Shown here: piece by piece, positions 25,118-58,660 of the stretch
Numbering within the stretch: the first letter of the stretch is position 1
How the letters are laid out: the number at the start of each line of letters is the position of its first letter
Assembly: GCA_048937405.1 (NCBI GenBank)
Contig: JBHLNF010000001.1
Location: 256,001-320,000 of the forward strand
Length of the DNA: 64,000 nt
Source of the DNA: Promethearchaeota archaeon
GTDB lineage: Archaea > Asgardarchaeota > Lokiarchaeia > Sigyniarchaeales > SOKP01
Direction: 5' to 3'
Program-made: the position numbers and the translations under genes
The notes under the pieces: generated by a model
What the model was told of the DNA's origin: nothing
What the model saw: only the letters and a program-made list of their open reading frames with translations
Database searches by the model: none

Positions 25118-25317
25118 TTACTCCTTTTTAAAAAGATTTCCACATCCCCCACACTTAATAGTTTTAGCATAAACCGGAGTACCCTGCTTCAGCAGTATGC
25201 TTAATTAGCATTACTTATACTGTAGTAAAGCACATTACTCTTATCTGGTTCTTCATGAAGCATTCGTGGATTCTCATTTCCACATTGGGGGCATTTAACT
25301 CTTTTAAAATCACTCAT
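25118..25317 (-). CDS. 56-aa zinc-ribbon protein encoded by two exons (25317-25217 and 25187-25118)
   Basis: Removing 25188-25216 gives MSDFKRVKCPQCGNENPRMLHEEPDKSNVLYYSMQGTPVYAKTIKCGGCGNLFKKE*. The two CxxC knuckles lie in different frames until spliced. Not in the ORF track. Confidence 0.8.
25188..25216 (-). other. Putative 29-nt mRNA intron, relaxed BHB (HBh'/BHL-like)
   Basis: Minus strand CAGT-ATA-[AGTAATGCT AATTA AGCATACT]-GCTG-AAG gives a 4-bp central helix, a 3-nt bulge and an intron stem-loop. Cuts at AT|A and AA|G restore the frame. Confidence 0.75.
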
Positions 25318-25376
25318 AATATCTTAACTCTGTATTCAAATATTTTAAATATTTAGTAGAGTGAATAAATTTAAAT

Positions 25377-25907
25377 TTAGGTATTTAGATTGGTATTTAT
25401 TACAATCTCGTGAACAATTTCTTTAATAGTTTTATTTGTGGTATCAATCATAAATTCAGCTGATTTTTCATATAAAGGTTTTCGAAAATTTAAGATTTTT
25501 AAAATTTCTTTCTTAGGGTCTTTTTTATCAATGAGAGGTCTTGTTTCTTTGCCATCCTTTAAGGCTCTCCTGAATATTTCATCTGGAGTGGCCTTTAATA
25601 AGACAATATGACAATTTTTACTTAAATGCAGAATATTTATAGGATTTAAGACTACTCCACCCCCACATGAGATCACAACTTTGTTAAGTTTAGAAACTTC
25701 TTTACACACTAAAATTTCATATTCTCTAAATTTATCTTCTCCTTCTTCTGCAAAAATTCTGGGTATTGACTTACCGGCTTGTTGAATAATAAGTTGATCT
25801 GTTTCGATAAATCTATAATCGTTCCCTAGATAATCAACTAATGCTTTTCCTATTGTGGTTTTTCCAGTAGCCATAAAGCCAATGAGTGCTATTGAATCTT
25901 TTCCCAT
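25377..25907 (-). CDS. aroK: Shikimate kinase (AroK type)
   Basis: GFMATGKTT, FREYE, SCGGG and RPL motifs. Confidence 0.93.
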   Translation of the reverse strand: MGKDSIALIGFMATGKTTIGKALVDYLGNDYRFIETDQLIIQQAGKSIPRIFAEEGEDKFREYEILVCKEVSKLNKVVISCGGGVVLNPINILHLSKNCHIVLLKATPDEIFRRALKDGKETRPLIDKKDPKKEILKILNFRKPLYEKSAEFMIDTTNKTIKEIVHEIVINTNLNT

Positions 25908-25954
25908 CTTTAATACTTTTCTTATTTCTTTGGTATTTATCTATCTAATGAAAA

Positions 25955-26539
25955 TCATTCTAATGAAAAACCATGTCTTCCAACCATACCATTTTTTATT
26001 TCGAGGTAATTACCTGTAATATAAGTTGGAAAATTAAATTGGGTAGGATCTAAAGAATTAGTTTTAACATACTTGGGATCGGAGTGTATTGCTACCACTT
26101 CACCAAAATAACAAATATGTGTTCCCAACTCGATTTTCTTTATTACTTTACATTCCATATTCCAAGGGAATTCTTTTCCCATAGGAACATTGACTATAGA
26201 TGCTTCTTCTTTAGTTAAATTTAACTCTCTCCATTTATCTACATCCCTACCTGAACGAGTGCCACAATAATCAGCTTCCTTTAATTGTTGTATTGTAGGA
26301 TAATTTATTACAAACTCACCATGATTTTCAATTAATTGAAACGAATGGCGAGAAGGTCGTATAGAAATTACAACAATGGGTGGCTCAGCACATACTTTTC
26401 CAACATAGGCTAAGGTGATTAAATTTGCTTTTTCTCCAATACCAACTGAAATAATGGCTACTGGCATAGGAAATGTGGAAATTTTTGGACTTAAAGAGGC
26501 TTTTTTCATTTTTGAGTCACAATTTACTTGTTTTAACAA
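25955..26539 (-). CDS. Flavin reductase family (flavoredoxin-like) protein
   Basis: PMPV, GEFVIN, CGTRSGRDVDK, MECKV and GTH motifs. Confidence 0.9.
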   Translation of the reverse strand: MLKQVNCDSKMKKASLSPKISTFPMPVAIISVGIGEKANLITLAYVGKVCAEPPIVVISIRPSRHSFQLIENHGEFVINYPTIQQLKEADYCGTRSGRDVDKWRELNLTKEEASIVNVPMGKEFPWNMECKVIKKIELGTHICYFGEVVAIHSDPKYVKTNSLDPTQFNFPTYITGNYLEIKNGMVGRHGFSLE

Positions 26540-26680
26540 GATATCTTAAAATTGCCATAAATGGTTAACATATTAAATAGTTTTAAATTAAATAATCTCA
26601 CTTTTTCAAATAAAACTATTAAAATTATTATCAATTCATTTATAATCAATATTTTTAAATCTTAATTTAAGTGGAAAATT

Positions 26681-27301
26681 ATGATAATAAAACATCGAGG
26701 TATTGAGCCTAAATATAATTCATCAGTGTTTATAGCTCCAACAGCAACAGTTATCGGTAATGTGTCTATTGGAAAAAGTTCACGGGTTATGTATGGTGCC
26801 ATTCTTGATTCTGAAGGCTCTGAGGTCGAAATTGGAGAATATTCAATTATATGTGAAAATGCTGTTCTTAGAGCTACAGCGTTAGGAGATCGCAACTATC
26901 CCGTAATAATTGGAGATCATGTCTTTATTTCACCCCAATCAACACTTATCGGGTGCAAAGTAGAATCTAACTCCTATATCGCGACAGGTGCCACCATTTT
27001 GCAAGGCGCACTTATTGAATCTGGTGCAGCATTAGCAGTTGGAGCTTTTGTTCACGCAAATACCGTTATCCCTGCGAATTCTTTTATTCCACCAAATAAC
27101 ATTGCGATTGGAGATCCCGTTAAGATTTACCGTCCAAAAGATCAAGAGTTATTAGCTAAAGCTATTAAATCAATTGGATTTGCAAAGATTGCATTTAATA
27201 TAGATGCTAAATGGGAAAATCGCTTTGAAAGATATAGACAAGCTACACTAGTAAGATCAAAAGAGTTTGAGGATCATTTTAATGATGAAATTATAAAGTA
27301 A
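26681..27301 (+). CDS. Gamma carbonic anhydrase / hexapeptide-repeat protein
   Basis: FIAPTATVIGNVSIG and left-handed beta-helix repeats. Confidence 0.85.
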   Translation: MIIKHRGIEPKYNSSVFIAPTATVIGNVSIGKSSRVMYGAILDSEGSEVEIGEYSIICENAVLRATALGDRNYPVIIGDHVFISPQSTLIGCKVESNSYIATGATILQGALIESGAALAVGAFVHANTVIPANSFIPPNNIAIGDPVKIYRPKDQELLAKAIKSIGFAKIAFNIDAKWENRFERYRQATLVRSKEFEDHFNDEIIK

Positions 27302-27317
27302 CAAAATTTTAGTAATA

Positions 27318-28208
27318 ATGATTGATATGTCAGAAAAAGATTATATAACTGCCAGGACAAAAGTTCTTTGTGTGATGGGATATCCAATTGAACATTCAAT
27401 GAGTCCATTAATGCACAATGCTGCGATCCGTGATTTAAATCTTAATTATGTATATCTTGCCTTTAATATTATACCTGATAACTTAAAGCTTGCTATAGAC
27501 GGAATTAAGTCATTTGACATTAAAGGTATTAATATAACAATCCCATTCAAACAAAAAATTATGAAATATTTGGATGAAATTGATCCTGTAGCTCAAGAAA
27601 TCGGGGCAATTAATACAATTAAAAATGAGGAAGGATTTTTAAGTAGTAGAAATACAGATGCAGAAGGAGCTATGAAAGCATTATTGGATGCAGGATATAG
27701 GATTTCGGGAAAAAATTTTTTATTATTAGGGGCTGGTGGAGCCGCAAGAGCACTAGCTTTTATGATGGCAAAAGAGGCAAATAGATTAGTAATAACCGAT
27801 AAGATTGAAAAGAAAGCAAAAAAGCTTGCAAATGAAATAAAAAAGAAATATGGGATTAATATTCAAGGAAAGATTCACAATAATCAGGTCTTGAGTGAAG
27901 AATCTAAAAAAGCTGATATTTTAATCAATGCTACTCCTTTAGGAATGCACCCTAATATTGATAAATCACCCATTCCTGTTGAATTTTTACATAAAGATTT
28001 GTTTGTTTTTGATATTGTGTATAATCCGTTAAAGACTCAATTATTGAAAGACGCATCTGAATTAGGATGTAATACACTAGGAGGTCTTGAGATGTTAGTA
28101 AATCAAGGTGCATTATCATTTGAATGGTGGACAAATAAAAAACCAAATATTAATTTAATGAAAAGTAAAATTATTGAATTTTTAGGGAGAAAAAAAAATG
28201 ATGGGTAA
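27318..28208 (+). CDS. aroE: Shikimate dehydrogenase
   Basis: HSMSP, NITIPFK, GAINT, NTD, GAGGAARA and NATPLG motifs. Confidence 0.95.
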   Translation: MIDMSEKDYITARTKVLCVMGYPIEHSMSPLMHNAAIRDLNLNYVYLAFNIIPDNLKLAIDGIKSFDIKGINITIPFKQKIMKYLDEIDPVAQEIGAINTIKNEEGFLSSRNTDAEGAMKALLDAGYRISGKNFLLLGAGGAARALAFMMAKEANRLVITDKIEKKAKKLANEIKKKYGINIQGKIHNNQVLSEESKKADILINATPLGMHPNIDKSPIPVEFLHKDLFVFDIVYNPLKTQLLKDASELGCNTLGGLEMLVNQGALSFEWWTNKKPNINLMKSKIIEFLGRKKNDG

Positions 28209-29106
28209 AAATATAACTATTATTGGAGGTTCAGGCGGTATGGGTCAAGTTTTTGGAAGATATTTCAAACAACATGGTTTCAAAATTACATTATTTGCGC
28301 GAAATGAAAATAAATTGAAAACTGTTGCACAAAATTTACAAGTTGAATATGAGGTAGATCTTAAGAAATGCATTGTAGATGCTGATATTGTAATGCTGTC
28401 AATCCCTATTCGTTCTATCTCAAGCATGATTGAAAAAATTGCCCCTATGATGAAAGAAAATTCATTAATTTTTGATATTACATCTTTAAAATTAGAAGCT
28501 TCAAGAATTCTTCATAAAATTTATGAACTCTATCCTATTAACTGTTTATCAATTCATCCAATGTTTGGACCGGGAATTAAGAATATGAAAAACTACGGTA
28601 TTATCATAATAAAAATAGGGGGAACTAATCAGTATAATAATATTATAAATGAACTGCTAGAGATTTTTCGATCAGACGGATTAATCATTACAGAAACAAC
28701 ACCTGACATTCACGATACTATGATTGCGTTGACACTTGGTGTTCCACATATGTTTAATATATTATTCTTGAATTTACTCAAGAGGACAAAAAAACCATTA
28801 AGCAAATTAACTTCCTTCACTGGTACCACCTTTTTATTACAAAAAGTTTTTGCAGAGAGTATTATTCAAAGAGAAATGGAAATGTTTGGAGAAATTCAAA
28901 TAGAAAATGAAAAATTTCATGAAATCTTAGACATTTTTGAAGATTTAATTAAAGAATATAAAAAAATAATTAAAACCAAAAATTTAAACGAGTTTAAAAC
29001 ACTGTTCTCTGAAGCGTTAGATTATTCTAAAGAGGATATACATTTTGAGGATTCATACACATATTTTTATGATTTTATGAGGATTTTAAAAGAAGAAAAA
29101 GAATAA
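28198..29106 (+). CDS. tyrA: Prephenate/arogenate dehydrogenase
   Basis: IIGGSGGMG, DITSLK, HPMFGP and HD motifs. Confidence 0.9.
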   Translation: MMGKNITIIGGSGGMGQVFGRYFKQHGFKITLFARNENKLKTVAQNLQVEYEVDLKKCIVDADIVMLSIPIRSISSMIEKIAPMMKENSLIFDITSLKLEASRILHKIYELYPINCLSIHPMFGPGIKNMKNYGIIIIKIGGTNQYNNIINELLEIFRSDGLIITETTPDIHDTMIALTLGVPHMFNILFLNLLKRTKKPLSKLTSFTGTTFLLQKVFAESIIQREMEMFGEIQIENEKFHEILDIFEDLIKEYKKIIKTKNLNEFKTLFSEALDYSKEDIHFEDSYTYFYDFMRILKEEKE

Positions 29107-29121
29107 AAAAATAGATTATTT

Positions 29122-29487
29122 TTAGATTGAACTACCACAGAGGGCACAAAATTTTGCTTTTTCATTTGGATCTAACTCAGATCCACAATTATAACAGAAT
29201 TTTGACTTTTCTTGATTCTTATATGTTTCTAAGACAAGTTGTTGGTTTTGAACTTGATTAGAACCACTCATCACTTGATAAGATGCAATTGCTTGATGAT
29301 CTTCCATAGGTTCATAGCAAACTGAATTACAATGAATACATTTAGGGTGGTGTTCCCGATCTAAGTAAACAGCAACATAGATTAATAAACCAATCCCCCC
29401 GGTAAAAATAGCTAGAAAAATAGCTAAACCAACATTAAATTCATTCTTTTTAGTATAAACATTTTTATTACATTTTGGACAATACAT
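29122..29487 (-). CDS. LITAF/BRI3-like membrane zinc-ribbon protein with C-terminal double zinc ribbon
   Basis: CPKC - hydrophobic hairpin - CIHC ... CYNC/CALC. Confidence 0.7.
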   Translation of the reverse strand: MYCPKCNKNVYTKKNEFNVGLAIFLAIFTGGIGLLIYVAVYLDREHHPKCIHCNSVCYEPMEDHQAIASYQVMSGSNQVQNQQLVLETYKNQEKSKFCYNCGSELDPNEKAKFCALCGSSI

Positions 29488-29620
29488 TTTTCTATCACTC
29501 CAAATTACTTTTTGTTTTTTAATTAAAATGAGAATTTAATTGAATTAAAAGAATTTGGAGTCCAATATTTAAATCAATATTACACTAAGTTTTTAAAATT
29601 TTAAAAAATTAAAAAAAAAA

Positions 29621-29998
29621 CTAATTTTCTCCTATCTGACTACCACAATTTGGACAAAATCTTATCCCTATGTCCAATTTTTCACCGCAGAGTGGGCAAT
29701 AATTAGGATTAGCACCAGTTATTCTTTCAGCTCCATTTGCTGAGGTAGAATAAGGAGATTGCTCCATTTGAGGTTGAGATGCATAAGGGCTTTGAATTTG
29801 AGTAGGTGTTATTTTAGTACTACAATGTATGCACCTATCTTCGGCTCTACGATAGTAAATAAGAAGATATATTATGAAACCAATTCCCGCAGTAAAAAGT
29901 AGTAATATTATTGCAAGGCATGTATCAATTTCTTCTCGTTTTAATAATACTTTCTGTTGGCAGCGAGGACACCATCCAGTGGGATTATGAGTTGTCAT
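29621..29998 (-). CDS. LITAF/BRI3-like membrane zinc-ribbon protein with C-terminal double zinc ribbon
   Basis: CPRC - TM - CIHC ... CPLC/CPNC. Start moved to MTTHNP (29998). Confidence 0.7.
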   Translation of the reverse strand: MTTHNPTGWCPRCQQKVLLKREEIDTCLAIILLLFTAGIGFIIYLLIYYRRAEDRCIHCSTKITPTQIQSPYASQPQMEQSPYSTSANGAERITGANPNYCPLCGEKLDIGIRFCPNCGSQIGEN

Positions 29999-30051
29999 TT
30001 TTTTTTCACGGATAATTATACAATTTTGATTAGTATAGATAATATAAGTTT

Positions 30052-30444
30052 TTATTCTTTGAGAGAAGCACCACATTTTGGGCAAATAGAATCTTGACTA
30101 CTTATTTCTTCCTGACAAAATGGGCAATTTGCTATATTGTTCCTTGAGTGTTTTTCTTGTTCGATAGTTTGAAGAATACGGGTGATTTCAGCTTTTGGTT
30201 CTGGAATATCTTCACGAGAGTCATAGAAAATTAATTGATTCTGACATTTTGGACAAAGGGTCTTTCTTATAATTACATAATGGTATATCAGAAAAGCTAT
30301 TATTCCAAATCCTAATGAAGATATGATCACAAGAATCCAGATATTATAATACATACTATCAAATGATTTTCTTTTTGGTTTGTCAATTTCTTTCTCACAA
30401 TTATTACAGTAGGCAAATCTCCTATTTTTACCCATGTCTCTCAT
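30052..30444 (-). CDS. LITAF/BRI3-like membrane zinc-ribbon protein with C-terminal double zinc ribbon
   Basis: CNNC - TM - CPKC ... CPFC/CPKC. Confidence 0.68.
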   Translation of the reverse strand: MRDMGKNRRFAYCNNCEKEIDKPKRKSFDSMYYNIWILVIISSLGFGIIAFLIYHYVIIRKTLCPKCQNQLIFYDSREDIPEPKAEITRILQTIEQEKHSRNNIANCPFCQEEISSQDSICPKCGASLKE

Positions 30445-30648
30445 TTAAAATAAGATAATTTATCCATTTAATTTTACTGGTAGCTTATTATAAAATACAA
30501 CTAAAAATGTTTCTTAACCATATCTAATTTTGTTAAATTTTTAATAATGTAAGGTAATTAAAGATAAAAAAAATAAGATCTTATTCATAAATATTTATTT
30601 AAGTGAAATTGGATTTTCTTCAACAAAAAATTAATTTCTAGAATTAAA

Positions 30649-31254
30649 ATGAAGCATAACTCCCTATTTATCGCACTCGAAGGTGGGGATGCAGCAGGAA
30701 CTACAACTCATAGTCACCTCCTTAAAGGTTTTCTAGAGAGTAAGGGACTTAATGTTTATTTAACTCAAGAACCATCAAATAGTAAAATTGGAACATTAAT
30801 AAGAGAATTTTTGAAAAATAAGCAAATCCCCCCTACAACAGATGCATTATTATTTGCTGCTGATAGGGATCTCCACTATAGAAATGAAATAAAGAAAAAA
30901 CTTGATGAAGGTTATATTGTTATATCTGATAGATATATAGAATCATCAATAGTATATCAGTCAGTACAATCTGATGAAATTACTGTCGAGTGGATTAAAA
31001 AAATAAATAAGTTTGTTGGATTACCAGATATTACAATAGTTTTGGATATAGATCCCGAAATTGCATTAGCAAGAAAACAAACTGAGGAATTGGAAAAATT
31101 TGAAGTAAATTCGTTCTTAAATAAAGTAAGAAATCTTTATCTTTCACGTGCTAAGGAAGAAAAATATCATGTTATTAACTCAGATGATATAATAGAGATA
31201 GTGCAAGAGAATATTCAAAAAATAGTTCTTGATAAATTAAAGAAATTAAGTTAA
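30649..31254 (+). CDS. tmk: Thymidylate kinase
   Basis: EGGDAAGTTT P-loop, TQEPS, LLFAADR and SDRY motifs. Confidence 0.92.
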   Translation: MKHNSLFIALEGGDAAGTTTHSHLLKGFLESKGLNVYLTQEPSNSKIGTLIREFLKNKQIPPTTDALLFAADRDLHYRNEIKKKLDEGYIVISDRYIESSIVYQSVQSDEITVEWIKKINKFVGLPDITIVLDIDPEIALARKQTEELEKFEVNSFLNKVRNLYLSRAKEEKYHVINSDDIIEIVQENIQKIVLDKLKKLS

Positions 31255-31345
31255 GCTATATAATCAAATAACAAAACATAAATTATTACCACAACATAAT
31301 ACATAGAGATAATTTATTTCAAATTCAAATTTTTTTTAGATTAAG

Positions 31346-32635
31346 TTGAGTTCTGAAAAATCCCCACAAGATCAATTCTTTAAAATTGATAGAATATTTA
31401 ACTATGTTCAAAAATTTAGCTTTCCTCGCCTTTCTGGAACAACTGGAGAAAAAAAAGCTGTTAGTTTAACAATAAAAACATTTAAAGAAATTGGTTATGA
31501 GGACCAAAAAATCCAAAAAGAGGAATTTGAGTTTTCCGATTTCTACTCTACTACACTTATAAAACTGATAATGGTAATTAATTTGACCTTTTCATTGTTT
31601 GTATTGATGTTTACATATATTAACTTATATTTTACGATAATTATAGTAGGAATAATGGCTATTGTAGTTTTGTTAATTATTAAAGGTTTAAAAAATCCTG
31701 AAGATCCTGGATTTTGGGGAGAATATTATGGTAAGACTATTTTCGCTACTAATGTCTTTGTAAGGGTACCTGCTAAAAAGCTATCAACTGATCAAGTAGG
31801 AGATATTATTATATCCGCCCATTTAGATTCTAAATCCCAATCTTTTAAAACGTGTTGGAGGGTGTTTTTTTATAAAGTTTGGTTATATTGTGGAATTATT
31901 CTTGGAATATTTTTTGTTCTTTTATTTATACGCACATATACAATAATTAAAATAAATCTTTTGATAATAGGAATTGCAGTATGGACTCTTACTATAATAA
32001 TTTCAATCTCAAACTTTTTTTTGTTATTTTTAAACACTCATAATAAGTCACCAGGAGCTTTAGATAATGCAACTGGAATGGCAGTGGTTTTTGAATTAAG
32101 TGATTATTTCAAAGAAAAGCCGCTTGAGAACTTTAATATTTGGTTCTGTCAATTTTCTGCCGAAGAACTAGGAACCATGGGTTCAAGAGTATTTATTAAC
32201 AATCATGAAAGTGAATTTATTAAAAATAGAGCATTTCAAATTAATTTAGATATGATATCATGTATGAATGAATCAAATAATCAAGTAGAGTATCTAAAAT
32301 CTTATGGTGTATTACCTCGGAAAAAAATCGCCCCTTTATTAAGTAAATATTTAGATAACGCGGCTAAAGAAGAAAATATAAGAATAAAAGGATTTCATTT
32401 ATCCACAGGAGCTCATACTGATTCTGTTCCGTTTCATTTAAGAGGACTAGATTCTGTTGATATTATCACAAGAGCAGGAGGTAAATATACTCATAACAGA
32501 GCTGATACACCTGATAAAGTTGATCCAAAAGTATTAAGGGAAGCCTGTGTGATAGTTAAAAAAGTAATTCTCTCATTAGATAGAGATTATAATATTTTAT
32601 GTGAAAATAAAGAGTTGAATTGCATTCTAGATTAA
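31346..32635 (+). CDS. Membrane M28 family metallopeptidase
   Basis: AHLDS, GALDNATG, AEELG, NLDM and H motifs; TM insertions. Confidence 0.88.
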   Translation: MSSEKSPQDQFFKIDRIFNYVQKFSFPRLSGTTGEKKAVSLTIKTFKEIGYEDQKIQKEEFEFSDFYSTTLIKLIMVINLTFSLFVLMFTYINLYFTIIIVGIMAIVVLLIIKGLKNPEDPGFWGEYYGKTIFATNVFVRVPAKKLSTDQVGDIIISAHLDSKSQSFKTCWRVFFYKVWLYCGIILGIFFVLLFIRTYTIIKINLLIIGIAVWTLTIIISISNFFLLFLNTHNKSPGALDNATGMAVVFELSDYFKEKPLENFNIWFCQFSAEELGTMGSRVFINNHESEFIKNRAFQINLDMISCMNESNNQVEYLKSYGVLPRKKIAPLLSKYLDNAAKEENIRIKGFHLSTGAHTDSVPFHLRGLDSVDIITRAGGKYTHNRADTPDKVDPKVLREACVIVKKVILSLDRDYNILCENKELNCILD

Positions 32636-32667
32636 TCAATTATTTAAATAAAAGCTGCAATACCTTA

Positions 32668-33204: not shown

Positions 33205-33374
33205 TAGTTTTTATAATTAACCAATAATCTTTAAGTTTTAGTTATCGTATAATTCAGTAAATTACTGTTTTAACAAAAAAATTTATTCTTCTTATAATAT
33301 GAATACTAACTAGTTTTGAGAGGAAAGAATAAGAATAGAGTAAAATTATAATTATAACAGTTATTCAGCTTGCA

Positions 33375-33860: not shown

Positions 33861-34084
33861 GATTCAAACTAAAGCACAATTTAATTATTATATTATAAAT
33901 ATATTCTATAAGTTATATTAGTAATTATAATTTATTTTCGATATTTAAAACTTTAATACTTGTGGTTTTAGAAAAAGCTACTTAATAAAATATTAAAGTT
34001 ATTATGTATTCAATTAAATAGTAACTAATTTGATAGACGCATAATTATTTAAATCTAGTTTTTATTAGAAAAAAGGCTACTATT

Positions 34085-34894: not shown

Positions 34895-34926
34895 TAATAT
34901 TAGGCAATATTTTCAAATTATTATAA

Positions 34927-39063: not shown

Positions 39064-39843
39064 ATGAAAAAAATTATCTCATTTTCTGGAAAAGGTGGTG
39101 TTGGGAAATCGACACTCCTAGTCCTAATGCTTAAATATCTTCTTGAAAAATTTAAAGATCTCAATATACTTGTCATAGATGCCGATCCCGATGCAAATAT
39201 AGGAGATATTATTGGAAAAGAAATCCATTTCAAAGAAACTATTGGGGGAAAAATGGCTGAATTTAAACAGAACATCCAAAAAAGACTAATCCCTCTCGAT
39301 GTATCAAAAGATCAAATCGTTGAATCAGAGGTATTTGATGCCCTAATTGAAATGGATCAGTTCGATATTCTAGAAATGGGACGAGGAGAAGGAGAGGGTT
39401 GCTATTGTAGTATCAATAATTATTTGAAACGCATTATTGATATATTAGCCAAAAATTATGACATGGTACTTATCGATGCTCCCGCAGGACTTGAGTTTTT
39501 TTCCCGAAAAACGGGTCAAACCGTTACCGATTTAGTTATTGTGTCCGATCCGAGTAAAATGGGCATTCATACCATGAAACGAATATTAGAAGTTACTAAA
39601 GAGGTAGAATTAAAATTCGAAAATATATGGATACTCGGAAACAGGTTTCCTGAAAATTCTCTAAGAGATATTTTAGAAAAAGAAGTTACTAATATTAAAG
39701 AAGAGGATGTAAAACTTCTAGGGTTTATCGCAAATAGTGATGAGATTAGTAAAATGAATATTATCGGAGAAAATCTTTTAGATCTTCCTAGTGAGAGTCA
39801 ATCATATCAAACGGCAAAGCAATTATTTGCAAAAATCGTTTGA
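39064..39843 (+). CDS. cooC: CooC-like nickel-insertion ATPase
   Basis: GKGGVGKS, DADPDAN, GEGCYC and DAPAGLE motifs. Confidence 0.85.
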   Translation: MKKIISFSGKGGVGKSTLLVLMLKYLLEKFKDLNILVIDADPDANIGDIIGKEIHFKETIGGKMAEFKQNIQKRLIPLDVSKDQIVESEVFDALIEMDQFDILEMGRGEGEGCYCSINNYLKRIIDILAKNYDMVLIDAPAGLEFFSRKTGQTVTDLVIVSDPSKMGIHTMKRILEVTKEVELKFENIWILGNRFPENSLRDILEKEVTNIKEEDVKLLGFIANSDEISKMNIIGENLLDLPSESQSYQTAKQLFAKIV

Positions 39844-49506: not shown

Positions 49507-49518
49507 ATATACCTATCT

Positions 49519-50931: not shown

Positions 50932-51094
50932 TCTCCGTGTTAGATTTCCTTTATATGATTTAATCTCTAAGAACTCTTAGATAATTTTATTTATAACCTA
51001 ATTCAAATTAAATTTTTTCTTACGTAAAGAACTAGTCTAAAATTGACTAAAAATATCTTCATGAAAAAAAAAAAAAAAAGGATTTAATTTTAAC

Positions 51095-51805
51095 TTATTT
51101 TTTTATTCGTTTTTTATATGTATAAATACATACAAAGGAAGCTACACAAGTAATACCTATTAAAATAGTTAATTCATATCCAGGAATTCCATTACCCCCT
51201 GGACCAGATATACCTTTAAGAGCAGCACTTTGAAGACTATCAGGGCAAATATCTACATAACTCATATTTGTAGCATAAATAAGATACATACTCATAAAAT
51301 ACCAATTAAGTGAGGAGTCAATAGTAAGAGCCCCACTTGGAATCCCTATCTCGAATTCATCACCATCGATGGTCACAACACTCGCAGGGGTCATATAACC
51401 CCAATCAGTACCAGTCCAATACAGACCACTTGGATTTATGAGATAACCACCACTGCCCCCACCATACATCACCATATATTGTGTGGTAGGATCATCAATG
51501 TCTTCATATAATATGAAAGTGTATATATAACTCGCCGTAGTAGGTACATTTCCACTAAAAGTTATAGTAAAATTTTGTCCTGAATGGGTCATCGTAGCAA
51601 TATCAACCTCTGTATGAAGATCAGTAGAGGTCCAGGTTTCTTCATTACCATTAATTTCGATTATATCACCTGTAGCATCAGTTATATTATCAGCAGTTGA
51701 TAACTTCAAATCTGCTCTTCCTATTGCAGCTGATGCCATAGAAACCATTAAAAAAAGACACAAGATAGATATTATAATAATATTTTTTCTTTTCATTGAA
51801 TTCAC
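51095..51805 (-). CDS. Secreted surface protein with Loki-CTERM-like anchor
   Basis: Signal peptide and C-terminal GIPGY + TM + KKRIKK. Confidence 0.8.
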   Translation of the reverse strand: MNSMKRKNIIIISILCLFLMVSMASAAIGRADLKLSTADNITDATGDIIEINGNEETWTSTDLHTEVDIATMTHSGQNFTITFSGNVPTTASYIYTFILYEDIDDPTTQYMVMYGGGSGGYLINPSGLYWTGTDWGYMTPASVVTIDGDEFEIGIPSGALTIDSSLNWYFMSMYLIYATNMSYVDICPDSLQSAALKGISGPGGNGIPGYELTILIGITCVASFVCIYTYKKRIKK

Positions 51806-51988
51806 TCTTTAGAAATATTAAACTTGGGTTTTTGTAAAATTTCTTACATGAATTGATAGTAATAATAATTATTAAATGTTATGTTAGATCATGTTTATTT
51901 AGTTGTTGGTTCGATTGAAAGACCATCATTTCAATTTTATAAAAAGATATAAACACTAAAGGTAAAAATATAAAAAAAAAAATTTATC

Positions 51989-53044
51989 TTAAGATCCAGA
52001 TTTGTATTTTTCAGCTTTATAGATTCTGTAGAAGTCCTCAATTGTACTTAAAGCAACTAAAGCAATTATCAAACAAGCAATTCCTCTAAAAATGGCATAA
52101 TATTCAGGAGCAATTCCTATATTGGTAAGAGTTTCTGTAGAGTTATCAATAATTAAGATTGGGAATATTTCTGGTCTATTTAACATTAAAACTACCACAG
52201 ATATCGAAGCTAATTTTACTGCTATTGTAATCCCATGAATAATCTGATGCGTTAACATCTGCCTATTTCCTATTAATCCCCGATTTAAATCTAAGATACC
52301 CTCAATTAACATAAATATTCCTGCGAATTGAAGATACAGAAGAAATTCAGGATTAATTAAATTTCTTACAGCTGGAATGGGTAACAAAATTAAGAATATT
52401 CCGAATATAATTCCTATAAATCCACCAATGATTACTCCTACAGGTTTTATATATGACCTTAATGGTTTTTTCTTAATTTCTGAAATTGAAATTCCTTTTT
52501 CTCTTGCGATCTCAAGACTTTGTTTTTCTTCCTCTCGGATTTTCTTTGATTTAAAATCTTCAGGAAAATAACCTTCCATCGATAATGCAACAAAAATTAT
52601 CGTAATTATAGCAAAAGCAGAGAGACATCCAATCTGTATTCCTTGAATTATATTTAAGAAGAATTTACCGATATCTACATTCCCAAAAATAATATCTATC
52701 ACCTGTGAACTGATTGAAATTCCGATTATGACTGCAAAAACAATTCCTAACACTTTTAAATAACTTGACCATAATTCTTCTGTAATATAATATTTTGGTG
52801 TACCTCGACGTTTGTATTCTTTAGCAATATTCTCTGGTTTTCCCATATGAGAAACTGCCAATTCAACAGATTGTAGTGTGGGTTGACCCGTTCCTGATAA
52901 TTCTTCCGCTTTACTCCAAATATGTTCTTCAAGTTCATGTAGGATATCGTTATGTTCTTTTTTTTCTTTAAGCCAGTCAGGAAGTTTAGATTTAACTGCC
53001 TTAAGATATTTTTTTATCATATTGCTCATTTCTTTTTCACTCAT
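51989..53044 (-). CDS. Membrane protein with N-terminal HAAS/DUF1700-like helical domain
   Basis: YLKAVKSKL...ELEEHI...MGKPENIAKEY followed by TMs; coupled to PadR. Confidence 0.75.
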   Translation of the reverse strand: MSEKEMSNMIKKYLKAVKSKLPDWLKEKKEHNDILHELEEHIWSKAEELSGTGQPTLQSVELAVSHMGKPENIAKEYKRRGTPKYYITEELWSSYLKVLGIVFAVIIGISISSQVIDIIFGNVDIGKFFLNIIQGIQIGCLSAFAIITIIFVALSMEGYFPEDFKSKKIREEEKQSLEIAREKGISISEIKKKPLRSYIKPVGVIIGGFIGIIFGIFLILLPIPAVRNLINPEFLLYLQFAGIFMLIEGILDLNRGLIGNRQMLTHQIIHGITIAVKLASISVVVLMLNRPEIFPILIIDNSTETLTNIGIAPEYYAIFRGIACLIIALVALSTIEDFYRIYKAEKYKSGS

Positions 53045-53594
53045 ACTTTAAACCTCTTTCTTTTAATTCTTTTTCTATATTATAACCACATACATCACAA
53101 AAACGTAGTTCTTCACTAGTAATATCAATTTTGTTAGCACACATAGGACAAAATAAATACTTCTCAGGTTTTAAATTAACACTTACATCAAATAAAGGAG
53201 CAATTGCCTCAGTTAATTTGCTATAAAATCCAGCTAGATGGTTAAAAATTTTTTTTCCATAATCTGTAACACTATAAAATTTTCTTCTTCTACCTGATTC
53301 TTCCTTTTTGGATTTAATTATATTATCATCCTCTAGCTTTCTCAAAATGGGGTAAAGTGTCCCTTCCTCAATGACTAACATTTCATTTGTCTTTTCTGTT
53401 AATTCTTTTAATATCCTATACCCATGTAAACCTTCATTTTCAGCTTGTGATAATATAGATAATATACAAAGTAGGCTTATACCTCTATTTATTTCTGTTT
53501 CTTGTTTTTCAACGTAATCTCGAAAGTATTTTGAGGCTATTAAAGCACTTGGATCTAATTCTTTTACACGTTTTATCATAATATTTAACTCCAT
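53037..53594 (-). CDS. PadR-family regulator with C-terminal zinc ribbon
   Basis: HGYRI, EGTLYPILRKLE, RRKFYSVT and CPMC...CDVC motifs. Confidence 0.9.
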   Translation of the reverse strand: MELNIMIKRVKELDPSALIASKYFRDYVEKQETEINRGISLLCILSILSQAENEGLHGYRILKELTEKTNEMLVIEEGTLYPILRKLEDDNIIKSKKEESGRRRKFYSVTDYGKKIFNHLAGFYSKLTEAIAPLFDVSVNLKPEKYLFCPMCANKIDITSEELRFCDVCGYNIEKELKERGLKYE

Positions 53595-53620
53595 AAGTTC
53601 ATTTTTATAGTCTTAATATA

Positions 53621-53657
53621 ATATAGTATTCTATGAATACTATATAGCTCATAGTAT
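53621..53657. promoter_or_regulatory. Inverted-repeat operator upstream of padR
   Basis: Perfect ATATAGTATTC-tat-GAATACTATAT (53621-53645) overlapping ATACTAT-N7-ATAGTAT (53637-53657). Confidence 0.7.
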
Positions 53658-53737
53658 ATAAATCTTTGCATTGTCATACCTATTATTTTTTTGAATTTTA
53701 AGTTTTCAATAGCATTTTAAGATAAGGAATATTTAAG

Positions 53738-55255
53738 ATGGATAAAATGGTTATTAATACTCCTGTTATTATAGGAGCAGCGCAAATTACACAGCGTAAA
53801 AATGTGGAAAAGCCTCTTGATCCTCTTCTTCTAATTGCTAAAGCATGTCAAAGAGCGATAGCAATGTCAGGAATAGATGGTTTGCGGGAAGCTATTGACA
53901 CTATATATATGTCAACTATTTCTAGTTGGATTTATGAAGATGCTTCAGAGAGACTTAGTAATCTTCTTGGAATAAAACTTATTCAGAAATATACAGCTCC
54001 AATTAGTGGGAATACACCTCAATTATTAGTTAATAAAGCTGCTAGAGCAATTTCTTTGAATGAGAATAAAGTTATTCTCATTGCAGGAGGAGAGGCAGCT
54101 TATTCAAAATATCGAGCAGATAAAGATAAAATCACTTTAGATTGGCCAGAATTACCAACACGAACAACTAATAAAATGCAAGAAGCAACGAATTATTATT
54201 CAAGTAAGTTTGAAATGAGTTATAGACTTATTGCTGCTAGATATATTTACGCTTTAATTGAAACAGCTTTAAGAGCTGAATCAGGCAGGAGTTTAAAAGA
54301 ACATCTAGACTATATTGGAAAGCGTTATGAACTTTTCTCTAAAATCGCTTCTGAAAATCCCTATGCTTGGGAACAAAATCATTTCAACGCTAAAGAAATA
54401 ATTACTCCTAATTATAATAATCGTATTATCTGTCATCCATATACTAAAAGAATGGTTGCGAATCTTTATGTAGATCAAGCCGCAGCCTTAATTATAACAA
54501 ATGAAAAAATTGCAGCTGATCTTGGAATTGATAAAAAAAAATGGGTATATCCAATGGGTGGTGCAGATCTAAATAATATTCGTTATATAACTCAACGTTC
54601 TAGATTATACAATTCACCTGCTATTCGAGAAGCATCAAAATTGGCTTTAAATCAAGCAGGGCTTAAACTTAGCAATATAGATGCTTTTGATCTTTATAGT
54701 TGTTTTCCTTGCATGGTAGAAATTGCCAGAAAAGAGATTGGCATTCCTGAAGATGATCCACGCAATTTAACAATAACTGGAGGACTTTCTTTTTTTGGAG
54801 GTCCTCTAAGTAGTTATTCTATGCATGCAATTGTTACGGCAATTGAAATTATTCAAAAAAATCCAAATAAGAAAATAATGGTATTAGCAAATGGGGGGTT
54901 TAATACATCAGAGTCAGTTGGAATATATGGGAGATCTCCTCCTGCTATGGCTTGGACAAGACAAGAATTTGATGCAATTCAACAAAAAATTGAATCAAAG
55001 ATTTTGCCAGAACCAATCGAAAAAGCAAATGGAAATCTTACAATAGAAGCATACACTATTATCTATGATAGAAAAGGATTACCCGAATATGCTATCGTAA
55101 TTGGATTATTAGAGAGTGGGGACCGTACTTTGGCTTTTATTATAGATGATTCTGATAAACTGCTGAGTCTAGAGGAAAAGGAACTTATAGGAAAAACTTA
55201 TTTAATAAAACATGACTCCAAGTTAAAGAGAAATATACTATTGATTGAATTTTAA
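53738..55255 (+). CDS. Thiolase-like acetyl-CoA acetyltransferase
   Basis: GNTPQ, GGEA, VDQAAA, DLYSCFP and TGGLSFFGGP motifs. Confidence 0.85.
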   Translation: MDKMVINTPVIIGAAQITQRKNVEKPLDPLLLIAKACQRAIAMSGIDGLREAIDTIYMSTISSWIYEDASERLSNLLGIKLIQKYTAPISGNTPQLLVNKAARAISLNENKVILIAGGEAAYSKYRADKDKITLDWPELPTRTTNKMQEATNYYSSKFEMSYRLIAARYIYALIETALRAESGRSLKEHLDYIGKRYELFSKIASENPYAWEQNHFNAKEIITPNYNNRIICHPYTKRMVANLYVDQAAALIITNEKIAADLGIDKKKWVYPMGGADLNNIRYITQRSRLYNSPAIREASKLALNQAGLKLSNIDAFDLYSCFPCMVEIARKEIGIPEDDPRNLTITGGLSFFGGPLSSYSMHAIVTAIEIIQKNPNKKIMVLANGGFNTSESVGIYGRSPPAMAWTRQEFDAIQQKIESKILPEPIEKANGNLTIEAYTIIYDRKGLPEYAIVIGLLESGDRTLAFIIDDSDKLLSLEEKELIGKTYLIKHDSKLKRNILLIEF

Positions 55256-55507
55256 CCATCTCTTTTTTCCCTTAATAAGCTTAATCTTTCTTTATTTAAT
55301 AATTTAGAATAATTTTATTTAAAAGATTAATTTTTATTAATGTTGTACTATTTAGAATTAAAGATAGTGAGATCAAAACAATTAAATAACGGTAATTAGA
55401 TTTTATATTTAAGGAGCCGGGTTAGGAGTAATTTGAATTTAGTTTCCAGGTAGAATAAATTATATATTTACAAAAACATAATAGATTAATAAGAAGGGTA
55501 AGAAAAA

Positions 55508-56287
55508 ATGGGACAAAAAAGTGTATATAAACAATATATTGATCTAATTTTGCTTAAAATGAAAAGAAATAGTAAGTACATCTATGATCAACTTACAAAA
55601 CCTAAAGTAGTGAAAATTTCAATATATCTTAGTTTATTGACTTTTTTACCTGGACTAATATTTGGTTTAATAATCGCAATACAATTTGGTGGTTTTGAGT
55701 ATAGTATTTGGTATAACTGGATAAGTGATTTAGGTTCAGTAAGATATACTCCTGCTCCTTTCATTTTAGATCTTACATGTATTCTAAGTGCAATTTTCAT
55801 TGTTCCCTTAATTCTGAATTTAAGTCGATTATATAGTTCACATCAAAATTATAAGTTAGATGATACTAAGAAAGAACACTATATTATACTATTTAGAAGA
55901 ATTTTCGGTTATATCGGAGTAATAAGTTTGATGGTTGGAGTTATTGGTATGTTTTTTGTTGGAGTTTTCAGTTTAGATCGTTCTCCATTTGATTTACATT
56001 TTTATTTCTCTTCGTCAGCATTTGGTGGGTTTGCTGTTGGAGCTTTTTTCACAGGTTTGGCTATAATATTAAGGAAAAGAATATTTCCTAAGACCGTAGG
56101 ATATTTTATGATTTTTGGACCATCAACAGCAGCTATTCTATATATAATAGCTCCAGCACCATTAACAAGACAGTTTCTTGAATGGATTCTGATGTTCTCC
56201 TCTCTAGCATGGTATTATGTTGTAGTTTTCATTACCCTCCAAAAATTAAATTCACTTCTCTTTTTCAATCCTGATTTTAAATGGTAG
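55508..56287 (+). CDS. DUF998-like membrane protein
   Basis: NWISDLGS, GVF...H and LEW motifs; multi-TM. Confidence 0.75.
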   Translation: MGQKSVYKQYIDLILLKMKRNSKYIYDQLTKPKVVKISIYLSLLTFLPGLIFGLIIAIQFGGFEYSIWYNWISDLGSVRYTPAPFILDLTCILSAIFIVPLILNLSRLYSSHQNYKLDDTKKEHYIILFRRIFGYIGVISLMVGVIGMFFVGVFSLDRSPFDLHFYFSSSAFGGFAVGAFFTGLAIILRKRIFPKTVGYFMIFGPSTAAILYIIAPAPLTRQFLEWILMFSSLAWYYVVVFITLQKLNSLLFFNPDFKW

Positions 56288-56400
56288 TATTTTTATTAAA
56301 ATTTTAATAACTTAGAAAAATAATCAAAAACCTTATTTTCTTTCTTTTTTTTAGAACAGTGTAAAAAAGATTATATTAATATTTAATATAAGTATCAAAA

Positions 56401-57228
56401 ATGAATATGGAATTATCAAAAGATCTGAATATTAAACTTCAAAGACTTCTTTCGTTTTTAAATGGAAAAAAAGTTATCGTAGCTTTTTCGGGAGGTGTAG
56501 ATAGTTCCCTTTTAGCATTTTTATCAAAAAAATATGCAAAAGAAACATTGCTTATAACTGAAAAATCAATTCTTTATCCTGAAGAAGAAATTAAATTAAC
56601 ATCCCAATTTGCTAAAAAATATGATATAAACCATTTGATTATTGAACGAGATCCTTTAAAAAACGAAGAATTCCAATTTAATCCGTCAAATAGATGCTAT
56701 ATTTGTAAAACAGGTCTATATAGTGATATAATTAAAATTAGAGATTCAAAAAAATTTGATTTAATTCTAGATGGTTCAAATATAGATGATCTTTCAGATT
56801 ATAGACCAGGGATGCAAGCTTTAAAAGAGTTAAAGATTTCTACACCGTATATTGAATTTAATATAAATAAAAATGAAATAAGAGATCTTAGTAAATTTTA
56901 TGATCTTGAGGTCCAATCTAAACCATCAATGGCTTGTTTTTCATCTCGAATTCCCTATGGTCAAATTATCAATGAAAAGAAATTATATATGATAAAAGAA
57001 TCTGAAAAATTTCTTAAGAAAAAATTTAATTTAACTCAATTAAGAGTGAGATTACATGAAGAAACTCTTGCCCGTATCGAATTTTTGCCTGAGCATTTAT
57101 CCAAAATTCTAACTGTAAAAAATTTAGAAATAATTAAAAGTAAACTAAAAGAACTAGGATTCACATATATTACTATTGATATTGAGGGATTTAGGTCAGG
57201 TTCAATGAATGAAGCTTTAGATTTATAG
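56401..57228 (+). CDS. larE: LarE-like ATP-dependent sulfur transferase (PP-loop)
   Basis: AFSGGVDS, RCYICK, DYRPG, ACFSSRIPYG and GFRSGSMN motifs. Confidence 0.9.
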   Translation: MNMELSKDLNIKLQRLLSFLNGKKVIVAFSGGVDSSLLAFLSKKYAKETLLITEKSILYPEEEIKLTSQFAKKYDINHLIIERDPLKNEEFQFNPSNRCYICKTGLYSDIIKIRDSKKFDLILDGSNIDDLSDYRPGMQALKELKISTPYIEFNINKNEIRDLSKFYDLEVQSKPSMACFSSRIPYGQIINEKKLYMIKESEKFLKKKFNLTQLRVRLHEETLARIEFLPEHLSKILTVKNLEIIKSKLKELGFTYITIDIEGFRSGSMNEALDL

Positions 57229-57242
57229 TAACTATCATTATT

Positions 57243-58660
57243 TTAATTTTCCTTTCTAATAAATTTGATAATCTTTATACGCTTCTCTAATGCTTTAATT
57301 TCTGCTTTTTTAACCTCGTTTTCCATTTTTTCAAGCAACTCAGGTGTCTCTTCTCCAACCTCTTGTTTTATTTTAGTATAGGCAGATTCTCTGAATTTTG
57401 GCAGGATTTCTTTTCTATTTTCATCAGAAAAAGTAAAAAAAACTTGGTTTGAGTCATCTACATATCCTATTTCATCACATTTGATATTAATTCTTTTGAG
57501 ATCAGAGATAATTTTCTCTGCGACGGTTGCTGAGCAATAAATTAAAAGAGCATCTAAAGAAACTCCTAAATAATCAACTCCAACTTTTCTCAACATGTTT
57601 AGAACATTCTGATTTACTAGATTTCTTACTTTTTCTTCAAATATATTTACACCGCATTTAGCTTCATAATTTATCTCATATAAATCTCCTCTTAAACCAC
57701 CATTTGTGACATCACACATTGCTCTAATCTCATCTATATAATCTGAGTTTAAAATAGTTTCACAAGCCTCTAAGAACTTTATATTCATCGTTTCTTTTAC
57801 AACATCATGATTTCCAGAATATATTGCCGTAGTTGTTATTGTTCCACCGCCAGCACCTTCAGTCATTAAGATTTTATCTCCAACTTGTATATTCCTTCTT
57901 GCTAATAACCTATTACAAACTCCTATTGCGCTTATTCCACCGACTAGTCTATTACCAATTACCATATCTCCTCCAATTCTCAAAGTTGAACCAGCGGTTA
58001 TTGGTACATTGGCTAAATCAGAAACTGTCGATACACCAGCTATGAAATCAAATAATTTCCCTACATCAGCGTCATCTCCAAGATGGACATCAATCATTAT
58101 AGAAATTGGTTTTGCGCCTTTAACATAGAGATCTCGTAGTGCGGCTCTCGATACGCTTCACGCAACTTATTACGCGAACTTACGTGAAAACCACACAAGA
58201 ATGGAAAGTCACTTAAACGACTGTGAATACCTTCCATTTTTGATACAATGATTAAATTATCTTCGGCTTTATATCCTTCAATATCACTAATCCTCACAGC
58301 ACCGGCATCATCTAAGGAGCTAGGTGATAGATATGCTCTCTGCTCTGTTTCAGATAACTCTGCGATGAGTTTATGAACAAAAAAGTCGCCTGATCCCCTA
58401 CAACCTATTCCTTGTTTACCAATGGTCACATTTGCCTTATTAATATCTAATAAATATCTCATAAAGGGATCTGAAACTGTCTTTATATCACTTTTTTTAC
58501 ATTCTTCATATATCGCTTCAGCAAGTGAGGTTGCGGACTCTACCTCAATGTCTTTAAAATCCAGATATTCTTTAACAAGACGTAAAATAATTTCTTCCTT
58601 TGTAAAACCTTTTCTCATTAACCTTCTTGTTAAACCTTCTAAATCACTCAAATTGCTCAA
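57243..58660 (-). CDS. AIR-synthase-related (PurM/HypE/SelD superfamily) protein, 462 aa after splicing; exons 58660-58180 and 58150-57243
   Basis: Two track ORFs are halves of one gene: GCRGSGDF, DDAG and GIHSRLSDFPFLCGFHV continue as TRAALRDLYVKGAKPISIMIDVHLGDD in another frame; DVTNGGLRGD downstream. Confidence 0.88.
58151..58179 (-). other. Putative 29-nt mRNA intron with canonical bulge-helix-bulge motif
   Basis: TGTGGTTTTC-ACGT-AAG-TTCGCGTAA-TAAG-TTGCGTGAA-GCGT-ATC-GAGAGCCGCA gives a 10-bp exon helix, 4-bp central helix, two 3-nt bulges and a 9-bp intron stem. Confidence 0.88.

What the first reader, a model, noticed from the sequence alone, without database searches (positions are those of the whole stretch)
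25188..58179. Two same-length (29-nt) frame-breaking introns in 64 kb suggest a genome-wide tRNA-type mRNA splicing system
Seen: the two introns lie in unrelated genes and differ in sequence, but both are 29 nt with the same layout (1 nt + 22-nt stem-loop + 4-nt helix strand + 2 nt) and similar loop regions (TAATAAG / TAATTAAG). Both break the reading frame unless removed. Inference: two cases in one window suggest many more genome-wide, currently annotated as split genes, and possibly a splicing-controlled expression switch. This is conceptually analogous to non-spliceosomal XBP1/HAC1 splicing in eukaryotes (endonuclease plus tRNA ligase). Both products are plausibly metal-related, but shared regulation is speculation.
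Basis: inference. Interest (0 to 1): 0.9.

Follow-up and report, generated by a model that had tools for sequence, protein, structure and literature searches.

The report
tRNA-type mini-introns in Asgard genes
Two protein genes of an uncultured Loki-type Asgard archaeon are each broken by a 29-base hairpin shaped like an archaeal tRNA intron; comparison with about 100 related genomes shows the inserts are real, conserved and part of a genome-wide set that very probably has to be cut out of the messenger RNA by the tRNA-splicing enzymes.

Summary
Both 29-nt inserts exist exactly where stated, on the minus strand. Their removal gives exactly the sequence of intronless orthologues. Intron B (PurM-like gene) is a textbook hBHBh' motif. 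It occurs as a 29- or 30-nt form in 18 of 83 distinct alleles, with 98% of pairs kept. Intron A (Zn-ribbon gene) is always 29 nt in 32 species and absent in 10. All seven hairpin pairs covary, but its 3' site is relaxed.

A motif-free comparison with one congener chromosome found five more such introns in this genome. Their hosts are methylmalonyl-CoA mutase, Elp3, a ferredoxin-domain protein, a nucleoside phosphorylase and UppS. tRNA introns of the same shape and size turned up as well. The genome encodes a two-paralogue EndA and RtcB.

So the inference of a genome-wide system is supported. The loop similarity, the metal theme and the expression switch are not. Structure-only scans were not enriched over controls, and no RNA data exist.

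Earlier follow-ups of this scan reported the same kind of intron in other genes of this genome. New here: intron B is inherited with exon 1 but not exon 2, which points to spread by recombination. Another species carries a paralogous second intron in gene A.

The parts
25188..25216 (-). Intron A, 29 nt: 1 nt + 22-nt hairpin + GCTG + AA
   Evidence: It is present as exactly 29 nt in 32 species and absent precisely in 10.
25217..25317 (-). Gene A exon 1 (ATG 25317-25315; MSDFKRVKCPQCGNENPRMLHEEPDKSNVLYYS + 2 nt of the Met codon); first CxxC of a small zinc ribbon
   Evidence: The spliced protein is conserved in all alleles.
25118..25187 (-). Gene A exon 2 (G of the Met codon, then QGTPVYAKTIKCGGCGNLFKKE, stop 25120-25118); second CxxC
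25219..25222 (-). A: exon strand (CAGU) of the 4-bp central helix. It pairs with GCUG at 25190-25193. The 5' bulge is AU|A (25218-25216).
   Evidence: 99.2% of cells are paired in 32 sequences, with one CG to UA compensatory change.
25227..25233 (-). A: exon-1 strand (GUGCUUU) of an exon-exon outer helix. It pairs with AGGGUAC at 25179-25185. The 3' splice site lies in an irregular loop, so the motif is relaxed (HBh'-like).
   Evidence: Pair 11-61 covaries (GC 16, AU 7, GU 4) at two third-codon positions.
58151..58179 (-). Intron B, 29 nt: G + 22-nt hairpin (58157-58178) + GCGU (58153-58156) + AU
   Evidence: The same site carries a 29- or 30-nt insert in 18 distinct alleles and none in about 65.
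58180..58660 (-). Gene B exon 1: N-terminal 160 codons plus 1 nt of a PurM-superfamily (AIR-synthase-related) protein
   Evidence: In the intact orthologue the AIRS domain (residues 145-234) spans the insertion site.
57243..58150 (-). Gene B exon 2: rest of the AIRS domain plus AIRS_C, stop 57245-57243
58182..58196 (-). B: 5' strand of the exon-exon outer helix (58186-58196, GUGUGGUUUUC) and of the central helix (58182-58185, ACGU). The 5' bulge is AA|G (58181-58179).
   Evidence: The minimum-energy fold is the canonical hBHBh' motif, z = -4.5. 98% of cells are paired in 18 sequences.
58139..58152 (-). B: 3' bulge AU|C (58152-58150) and 3' strand of the outer helix (58139-58149, GAGAGCCGCAC)

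Best explanation
Both inserts are archaeal bulge-helix-bulge (BHB) introns inside coding sequences.

Proposed mechanism:
- The pre-mRNA folds so that four exon bases just upstream of the insert pair with four bases near the intron's 3' end.
- This 4-bp helix is flanked by a 3-nt bulge on each strand, with an intron hairpin on one side and, in B, an 11-bp exon-exon helix on the other.
- The two-paralogue (alpha-beta type) splicing endonuclease EndA cuts after the second base of each bulge.
- RtcB joins the exons, restoring one open frame.

The introns belong to a genome-wide population of 28-31-nt BHB mini-introns that also interrupt this organism's tRNA genes. They most likely persist as nearly neutral or selfish passengers wherever the exon can supply its half of the motif, and they spread between related genomes by homologous recombination.

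Shown here: the inserts, their exact boundaries, their structure, its conservation by compensatory change, purifying selection on both exons, and the presence of the enzymes. Inferred: cleavage and ligation in the cell.
For: 1. Exact boundaries. Removing the 29 nt reproduces the intronless orthologue sequence with no sliding ambiguity.

2. Geometry. B folds as a canonical hBHBh' motif, and so do all 18 alleles. A has a canonical 5' bulge, central helix and inner hairpin.

3. Covariation.
- A: 94% of cells are paired against 24-51% when partners are slid. All 7 hairpin pairs show changes on both sides, and no shuffle of 500 reaches the observed score.
- B: 98.4% paired against 30-54% slid. Pair 31-45 reads UA 8, CG 6, UG 4.

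4. The insert is not translated. B exists as a frame-shifting 29-nt form and as an in-frame 30-nt form with a TGA stop. The sequence evolves by pair-preserving changes, not codon-preserving ones.

5. The hosts are functional. All 32 intron-A alleles keep both exons open in two different frames and encode a conserved protein.

6. It is not a one-off. A motif-free comparison with the congener G023 found 5 more protein-gene introns of 29-31 nt in this genome. Four have a fully paired central helix and UppS has 3 of 4. Pfam profile coordinates resume across four of the five splits, with the ferredoxin domain cut short at the fifth. The comparison also found tRNA introns of the same form.

7. Machinery. 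One EndA paralogue matches the A. pernix, S. tokodaii and P. aerophilum EndA chains over its full length. The second paralogue has Asp-Ser-Ala where the first has Glu-His-Ser. RtcB is present. Asgard EndA is reported to be the (alpha-beta)2 type with the L1 loop that confers broad substrate specificity (PMC5829648).

8. The DNA is real. Contigs of 4 runs bridge intron B.
Against: There is no RNA evidence, because no RNA run holds the locus.

Intron A's 3' splice site is not a canonical 3-nt bulge. RNAalifold pairs part of it, and the minimum-energy fold of the single sequence is a competing hairpin. Its cleavage therefore depends on the assumed broad specificity of this EndA.

Structure-plus-ORF-merging scans of the whole genome gave no excess over controls with the 3' site moved by 1-2 nt. 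The genome-wide claim therefore rests on comparative evidence only.

The catalytic versus structural assignment of the two EndA paralogues rests on my reading of one motif.
Confidence: 0.85

Rival explanations
1. The introns are real, but their removal is conditional. Splicing efficiency would be tuned by stress, metals or growth state to switch the host genes on and off, as in HAC1/XBP1.
For: Unspliced mRNA gives truncated products. In Haloferax, a BHB intron in the 5' UTR of HVO_1309 matters for that gene's expression (PMC7714728). Intron A has a competing alternative fold.
Against: The hosts are unrelated housekeeping and metabolic genes. Close relatives with near-identical alleles carry or lack intron B. 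Ten species do without intron A. Presence therefore looks dispensable, not regulatory. No condition data exist.
Confidence: 0.1
2. Translational recoding. The ribosome would bypass or frameshift over the hairpin, as in the phage T4 gene 60 hop, without any RNA cleavage.
For: A stable hairpin sits at the break. In B, a GUA codon precedes the insert and GUA recurs at its end.
Against: The hop in B would give V-S-R-A, whereas orthologues have V-T-R-A or V-A-R-A. Intron A has no matching take-off and landing codons. The 4-bp helix and 3-nt bulges recur in 7 of 8 unrelated inserts and in tRNA genes, where translation is irrelevant. Both 29- and 30-nt forms occur at one site.
Confidence: 0.03
3. Dead genes. 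The inserts would be scars of a small mobile DNA element or slippage events that inactivated the genes.
For: The inserts break the frame. Presence and absence are patchy.
Against: Both exons stay open and conserved in 32 (A) and 18 (B) alleles, in different frames. The helices covary. Hosts elsewhere include genes such as Elp3, UppS and, in the congener G023, EF-2. I saw no terminal repeats or target duplications in the sequences.
Confidence: 0.02

Closest known systems
BHB intron in the cbf5 pre-mRNA of Crenarchaeota (Watanabe 2002; Yokobori 2009, PMC2738675)
   Same: It is a short BHB-type intron inside a protein-coding sequence, often with a relaxed motif. It occurs in organisms with a heterotetrameric broad-specificity EndA, and its presence is patchy among relatives.
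   Different: In the papers I could search, cbf5 is the only coding-sequence case reported (PMC7714728). Here at least 7 unrelated genes in one genome carry such introns. The organism is an Asgard archaeon, the introns form a narrow 28-31-nt size class, and there is evidence for spread by recombination and for intron duplication.
[quoted passage not shown]
   Same: The motif, the predicted enzymes and the size are the same. tRNA genes of this genome carry 30-nt inserts of identical layout. ARAGORN recognises only 14 tRNA genes in a genome scored 100% complete, which fits heavy interruption.
   Different: The host RNA is an mRNA, so the exon half of the motif must be built from codons. Synonymous sites of the flanking codons covary with the intron. 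That preprint does not mention mRNA (0 occurrences).
BHB intron in the 5' UTR of Haloferax volcanii HVO_1309 (PMC7714728)
   Same: An mRNA is a substrate of the splicing endonuclease, shown in vivo and in vitro.
   Different: That intron lies in the untranslated leader and does not interrupt the reading frame.
HAC1/XBP1 unconventional cytoplasmic splicing (IRE1 + tRNA ligase)
   Same: It is non-spliceosomal, protein-catalysed removal of a short frame-changing intron from an mRNA, with ligation by the tRNA ligase (RtcB in animals; my own knowledge).
   Different: The endonuclease is IRE1, which recognises paired stem-loops, not EndA on a BHB motif. That system is a stress-regulated switch, for which there is no evidence here. 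The likeness is an analogy, not membership.

Membership tests
Archaeal BHB intron (canonical hBHBh') | [quoted passage not shown] | tested here: met
   Intron B has the bulges AAG and AUC, the central helix ACGU/GCGU, an 11-bp outer helix and a 9-bp inner helix.
Archaeal BHB intron (relaxed, HBh'-type) | At least one canonical bulge with the central helix and the inner helix; the other site irregular | tested here: met
   Intron A has the 5' bulge AUA between CAGU/GCUG and a covarying hairpin. Its 3' site lies in an irregular loop next to an exon-exon helix.
Archaeal BHB intron | Precise excision at the bulges restores the functional RNA | tested here: met
   Cutting after bulge base 2 on both sides gives the intronless orthologue sequence, and the boundary is unique. 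This was tested on DNA only.
Archaeal BHB intron | Helices maintained by compensatory substitutions | tested here: met
   No shuffle of 500 reaches the observed covariation score, and slid partners pair in only 24-54% of cells.
Archaeal BHB intron | The host encodes the splicing endonuclease EndA and the ligase RtcB | tested here: met
   Two PF01974 paralogues and one PF01139 gene are present. One paralogue matches 3P1Z_B and 3AJV_B over its full length. The broad specificity of this enzyme is inferred from PMC5829648 and was not tested.
Archaeal BHB intron | Spliced RNA or excised (circular) intron observed | not testable with these tools
   No RNA run holds the locus.
HAC1/XBP1-type unconventional splicing | IRE1 kinase-endonuclease cutting in the loops of two short stem-loops | tested here: not met
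   Both splice sites lie in 3-nt bulges beside a 4-bp helix, not in hairpin loops. I did not search for IRE1.
Group I / group II self-splicing introns | A ribozyme core of hundreds of nucleotides | tested here: not met
   The inserts are 29 nt, and no Rfam family matches anywhere in the window.

The most novel reading that the evidence does not exclude
BHB mini-introns in this Asgard lineage form a mobile population. They colonise mRNAs as well as tRNAs, move between species on recombination tracts, and duplicate to new sites that offer the same exon 6-mer.

This would be a protein-dependent system of intron invasion and maintenance in the coding genes of the closest prokaryotic relatives of eukaryotes.
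Probability: 0.35. Interest if true: 0.9.

Novelty: new variant of a known kind. Interest (0 to 1): 0.78.

Why it matters
In the papers I could search, splicing of a coding sequence by the tRNA-intron machinery is documented in archaea for one gene only, cbf5.

Here a single Asgard genome carries such introns in at least seven unrelated genes. A congener carries one in EF-2. The introns are kept by selection on RNA structure, vary in presence between near-identical alleles, and appear to travel by recombination.

Consequences if confirmed on RNA:
- Split-gene annotations in Asgard MAGs would need correcting.
- Synonymous sites would be shown to serve as splice-signal halves.
- There would be a tractable case of intron gain, loss and spread in protein genes of the archaeal lineage nearest to eukaryotes.

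Tried and rejected
1. Structure-only genome scans.
- The descriptor was a 4-bp central helix, 3-nt bulges and an inner stem, with lengths 14-80 or 24-40 nt. I also required that removal merge two ORFs.
- There was no excess over controls with the 3' site moved by 1 or 2 nt, at any threshold.
- The background comes from fusions at gene junctions. The first hairpin rule also missed intron A.

2. The same scan with a requirement that the orthologous G023 site also show BHB geometry and ORF merging. At thresholds of 50 and 50 codons it gave 27 loci against 19-26 in controls, which is not significant.

4. The first whole-genome tblastn script was killed and had to be re-run in chunks.

5. RNA evidence: no RNA holder is listed for the locus.

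6. The 60-70-nt length differences between G000 and G023 are mostly intergenic and are not introns.

7. The insert at G000 C7:230533 is not in a protein gene. It sits in a sequence that looks like a tRNA T-arm.

8. Rfam and ARAGORN find nothing in the window.
Full report
**What is there.** The window is G000:C7:256001-320000 of a 4.47-Mb, 29% G+C assembly. Both candidates lie on the minus strand.

- Gene A is a 56-codon CxxC...CxxC zinc-ribbon ORF. Its two halves are in different frames, separated by AAGTAATGCTAATTAAGCATACTGCTGAA (window 25216..25188).
- Gene B is a PurM-superfamily (AIRS + AIRS_C) gene split into ORFs 58660..58097 and 58097..57243. The insert is GTTCGCGTAATAAGTTGCGTGAAGCGTAT (58179..58151).

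Record titles of congeners name the lineage as Promethearchaeota/Promethearchaeia, that is Loki-type Asgard archaea.

**Are the boundaries real?**

For gene B, 18 congeners sampled by the genome search have an uninterrupted gene reading ...TTTCATGTAA|CTCGAGC... (FHVTRA). G000 and G024 carry 29 and 30 extra bases exactly there.

For gene A, a DNA search of 54 genomes of the genus, followed by extraction, gave two classes:
- 32 alleles carry an insert of exactly 29 nt.
- 10 alleles have none and read ...TACTACAGTAT|GCAAGGCAC... (YYSMQGTPVY).

In both genes only one cut position reproduces the intronless sequence (slide 0). That position lies after the second base of each predicted bulge, where the splicing endonuclease is described to cut ("inside each bulge").

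DNA contigs from four runs in two studies bridge intron B, and no intronless joint was seen. Variants with one extra base in the loop coexist in those samples.

**Structure.**

Intron B's minimum-energy fold is the canonical motif (z = -4.5):
- outer exon-exon helix GUGUGGUUUUC/GAGAGCCGCAC
- 4-bp helix ACGU/GCGU
- bulges AAG and AUC
- a 9-bp hairpin

A scan of the 79 loci fetched from the genome collection, together with the earlier ones, showed the same insert at the same codon in 19 loci (18 distinct sequences). It is 29 or 30 nt long, always has this geometry, and always splices to CGFHVTRA(A/T)LRDLYVKG. On their alignment 98.4% of cells are paired, against 30-54% with slid partners. Pair 31-45 reads UA 8, CG 6, UG 4, and outer pair 9-67 reads GC 12, AU 4. 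The 30-nt form is in frame but carries a TGA stop. Length is therefore not tied to the frame, and the sequence evolves as RNA, not as codons.

Intron A has a canonical 5' half: CAGU/GCUG, the bulge AU|A and a hairpin. Across 32 sequences all seven hairpin pairs show changes on both sides. The central helix is 99% paired with one CG to UA switch. An exon-exon helix (GUGCUUU/AGGGUAC) covaries at two third-codon positions. Its 3' site is not a clean 3-nt bulge, so the motif is relaxed, and the single-sequence minimum-energy fold is a competitor.

**Are the hosts alive?** All 32 intron-A alleles keep both exons open in two frames and encode a conserved protein. The same holds for all intron-B alleles. 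In the intact orthologue the AIRS domain runs straight across the insertion point.

**Is it genome-wide?**

With descriptors loose enough to admit the known cases, ORF-merging candidates were no commoner than in controls with the 3' site shifted by 1-2 nt. Fusions at gene junctions dominate the counts.

I therefore fetched the 2.27-Mb chromosome of a congener (G023) and compared it with G000 without any structural criterion. The methods were split tblastn HSPs, in-HSP insertions containing stops, and blastn gaps.

Besides intron B, G000 has five further inserts in protein genes that G023 lacks precisely:

| G000 position | Strand | Length (nt) | Host |
|---|---|---|---|
| C15:3033-3063 | + | 31 | methylmalonyl-CoA mutase |
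| C25:116201-116231 | + | 31 | Elp3 |
| C7:426890-426918 | - | 29 | 4Fe-4S ferredoxin-domain protein |
| C28:498455-498484 | + | 30 | nucleoside (AMP/thymidine) phosphorylase family |
| C17:187274-187303 | - | 30 | undecaprenyl-diphosphate synthase (UppS) |

- Pfam coordinates support four of the five splits directly. MM_CoA_mutase runs 2-54 then 58-512, and the Radical_SAM, Glycos_transf_3 and Prenyltransf profiles each begin part-way along in exon 2. In the ferredoxin protein, exon 1 ends at Fer4 position 18-20 of 24 and exon 2 has no Pfam match.
- G023 in turn has its own inserts that G000 lacks, including a 30-nt one with in-frame stops in EF-2.
- Of the 8 high-confidence inserts, 7 have a fully paired central helix at the unique boundary, and UppS has 3 of 4. 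Unrelated indels show 0-3 pairs and no hairpin.
- Three 30-nt inserts of the same layout sit in tRNA-like sequences.
- ARAGORN recognises only 14 tRNA genes in a genome scored 100% complete, 9 of them with introns. This fits the heavy tRNA interruption reported for Asgard archaea.

Earlier follow-ups of this scan report the same kind of intron in mevalonate kinase, rpoN, RNase HII, Elp3, phosphofructokinase, two iron-protein genes, hdrA and iorB of this genome. I re-found Elp3 and one iron-protein gene independently and did not test the rest. My own count of 7 is a lower bound. It covers only genes shared with one relative and only introns that the relative lacks.

**Machinery.** G000 has two PF01974 paralogues of 197 and 200 residues, and one RtcB gene.
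- The first paralogue matches the Aeropyrum, Sulfolobus and Pyrobaculum EndA chains end to end.
- The second paralogue has Asp-Ser-Ala where the first has Glu-His-Ser, so I read it as the structural subunit. This is my reading, not a test.
- Asgard EndA has been described as the (alpha-beta)2 type with the L1 loop that confers broad specificity (PMC5829648). Intron A's relaxed 3' site would need that breadth.

**Dynamics.**
- On a tree of exon-2 protein sequences (83 distinct alleles), intron B needs 14 gains or losses, at least 8 of them forced by well-supported branches. This is hardly better than shuffled labels (mean 16.5). Near-identical alleles differ in presence.
- On the exon-1 tree it needs only 7 changes (at least 3 forced), and no shuffle of 500 does as well. 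Twelve intron alleles share one strongly supported clade of 14. The 11 exon-1 sequences closest to G000 all carry the intron.
- The intron is thus inherited with exon 1 and not with exon 2. The simplest reading is recombination between genomes that carries the intron plus upstream DNA. These are quick trees and the reading is an inference.
- In G016 the zinc-ribbon gene has a second, 31-nt intron 17 nt downstream of the first. It follows another CAGTAT, uses the same GCUG strand, and is alignable with intron 1 over most positions. I read this as a duplication to a site that offers the same exon half of the motif.

**What is not supported.**
- The 29-nt identity of the two introns is coincidence within a 28-31-nt class.
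- The loops (TAATTAA, TATTTCA, TAATAAG, AAATGAAAT and others) are merely AT-rich.
- The hosts share no theme.
- Gene B reaches no equivalog cut-off.
- There is no evidence on regulated splicing.

**Comparison with the literature.** The papers I could search report one BHB intron inside an archaeal coding sequence (cbf5 of Crenarchaeota) and one in a 5' UTR (Haloferax HVO_1309). Searches for Asgard mRNA BHB introns found nothing, and the 2026 preprint on Asgard tRNA introns does not mention mRNA. The mechanism is a known kind. New here are its scale in coding genes, the lineage and the mode of spread.

**Verdict.** No RNA-level proof is available.

Noticed in passing
L064:137-167 (-), genome G016, zinc-ribbon gene orthologous to window 25118-25317: A second 31-nt BHB-type intron lies 17 nt downstream of the first. 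It follows a second CAGTAT and uses the same GCUG strand. It aligns with intron 1 over most positions, which suggests intron duplication to a like target.
   Followed up: partly
L049 (G017) and L059 (G057), between TPVY and the second CxxC of the zinc-ribbon gene: These alleles carry further inserts of about 30 nt or more at other positions. The spliced-at-site-1 ORF stops early there. They were not analysed for BHB geometry.
   Followed up: no
Loci L001-L020 and L069-L147 (PurM-like gene, window 57243-58660): The exon-1 and exon-2 trees disagree. Intron-bearing alleles cluster on exon 1 (7 changes, 0 of 500 shuffles as low) but are scattered on exon 2 (14 changes). This indicates recombination near the intron.
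   Followed up: partly
G023 chromosome 1382056-1382085 (+), loci L220/L221: The elongation factor 2 gene of the congener carries a 30-nt BHB-shaped insert with in-frame stops that G000 lacks. G023 also has 28- and 31-nt BHB-shaped inserts at 39660 and 292033, whose hosts were not identified.
   Followed up: partly
whole genome G000: ARAGORN finds only 14 tRNA genes (9 with introns of 12-46 nt) in a genome scored 100% complete. Most tRNA genes must be too interrupted to be recognised. G000 C3:4902-4966 is a 65-nt insert in a tRNA-like sequence.
   Followed up: no
window 58161-58163: Sediment contigs from the same samples carry one extra base in the loop of intron B. The 29- and 30-nt forms therefore coexist in the community.
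   Followed up: no
L062 (G023 around 203826-204200): The G023 orthologue of the zinc-ribbon gene is masked (N) in the held copy, so the intron-A status of that genome is unknown.
   Followed up: no
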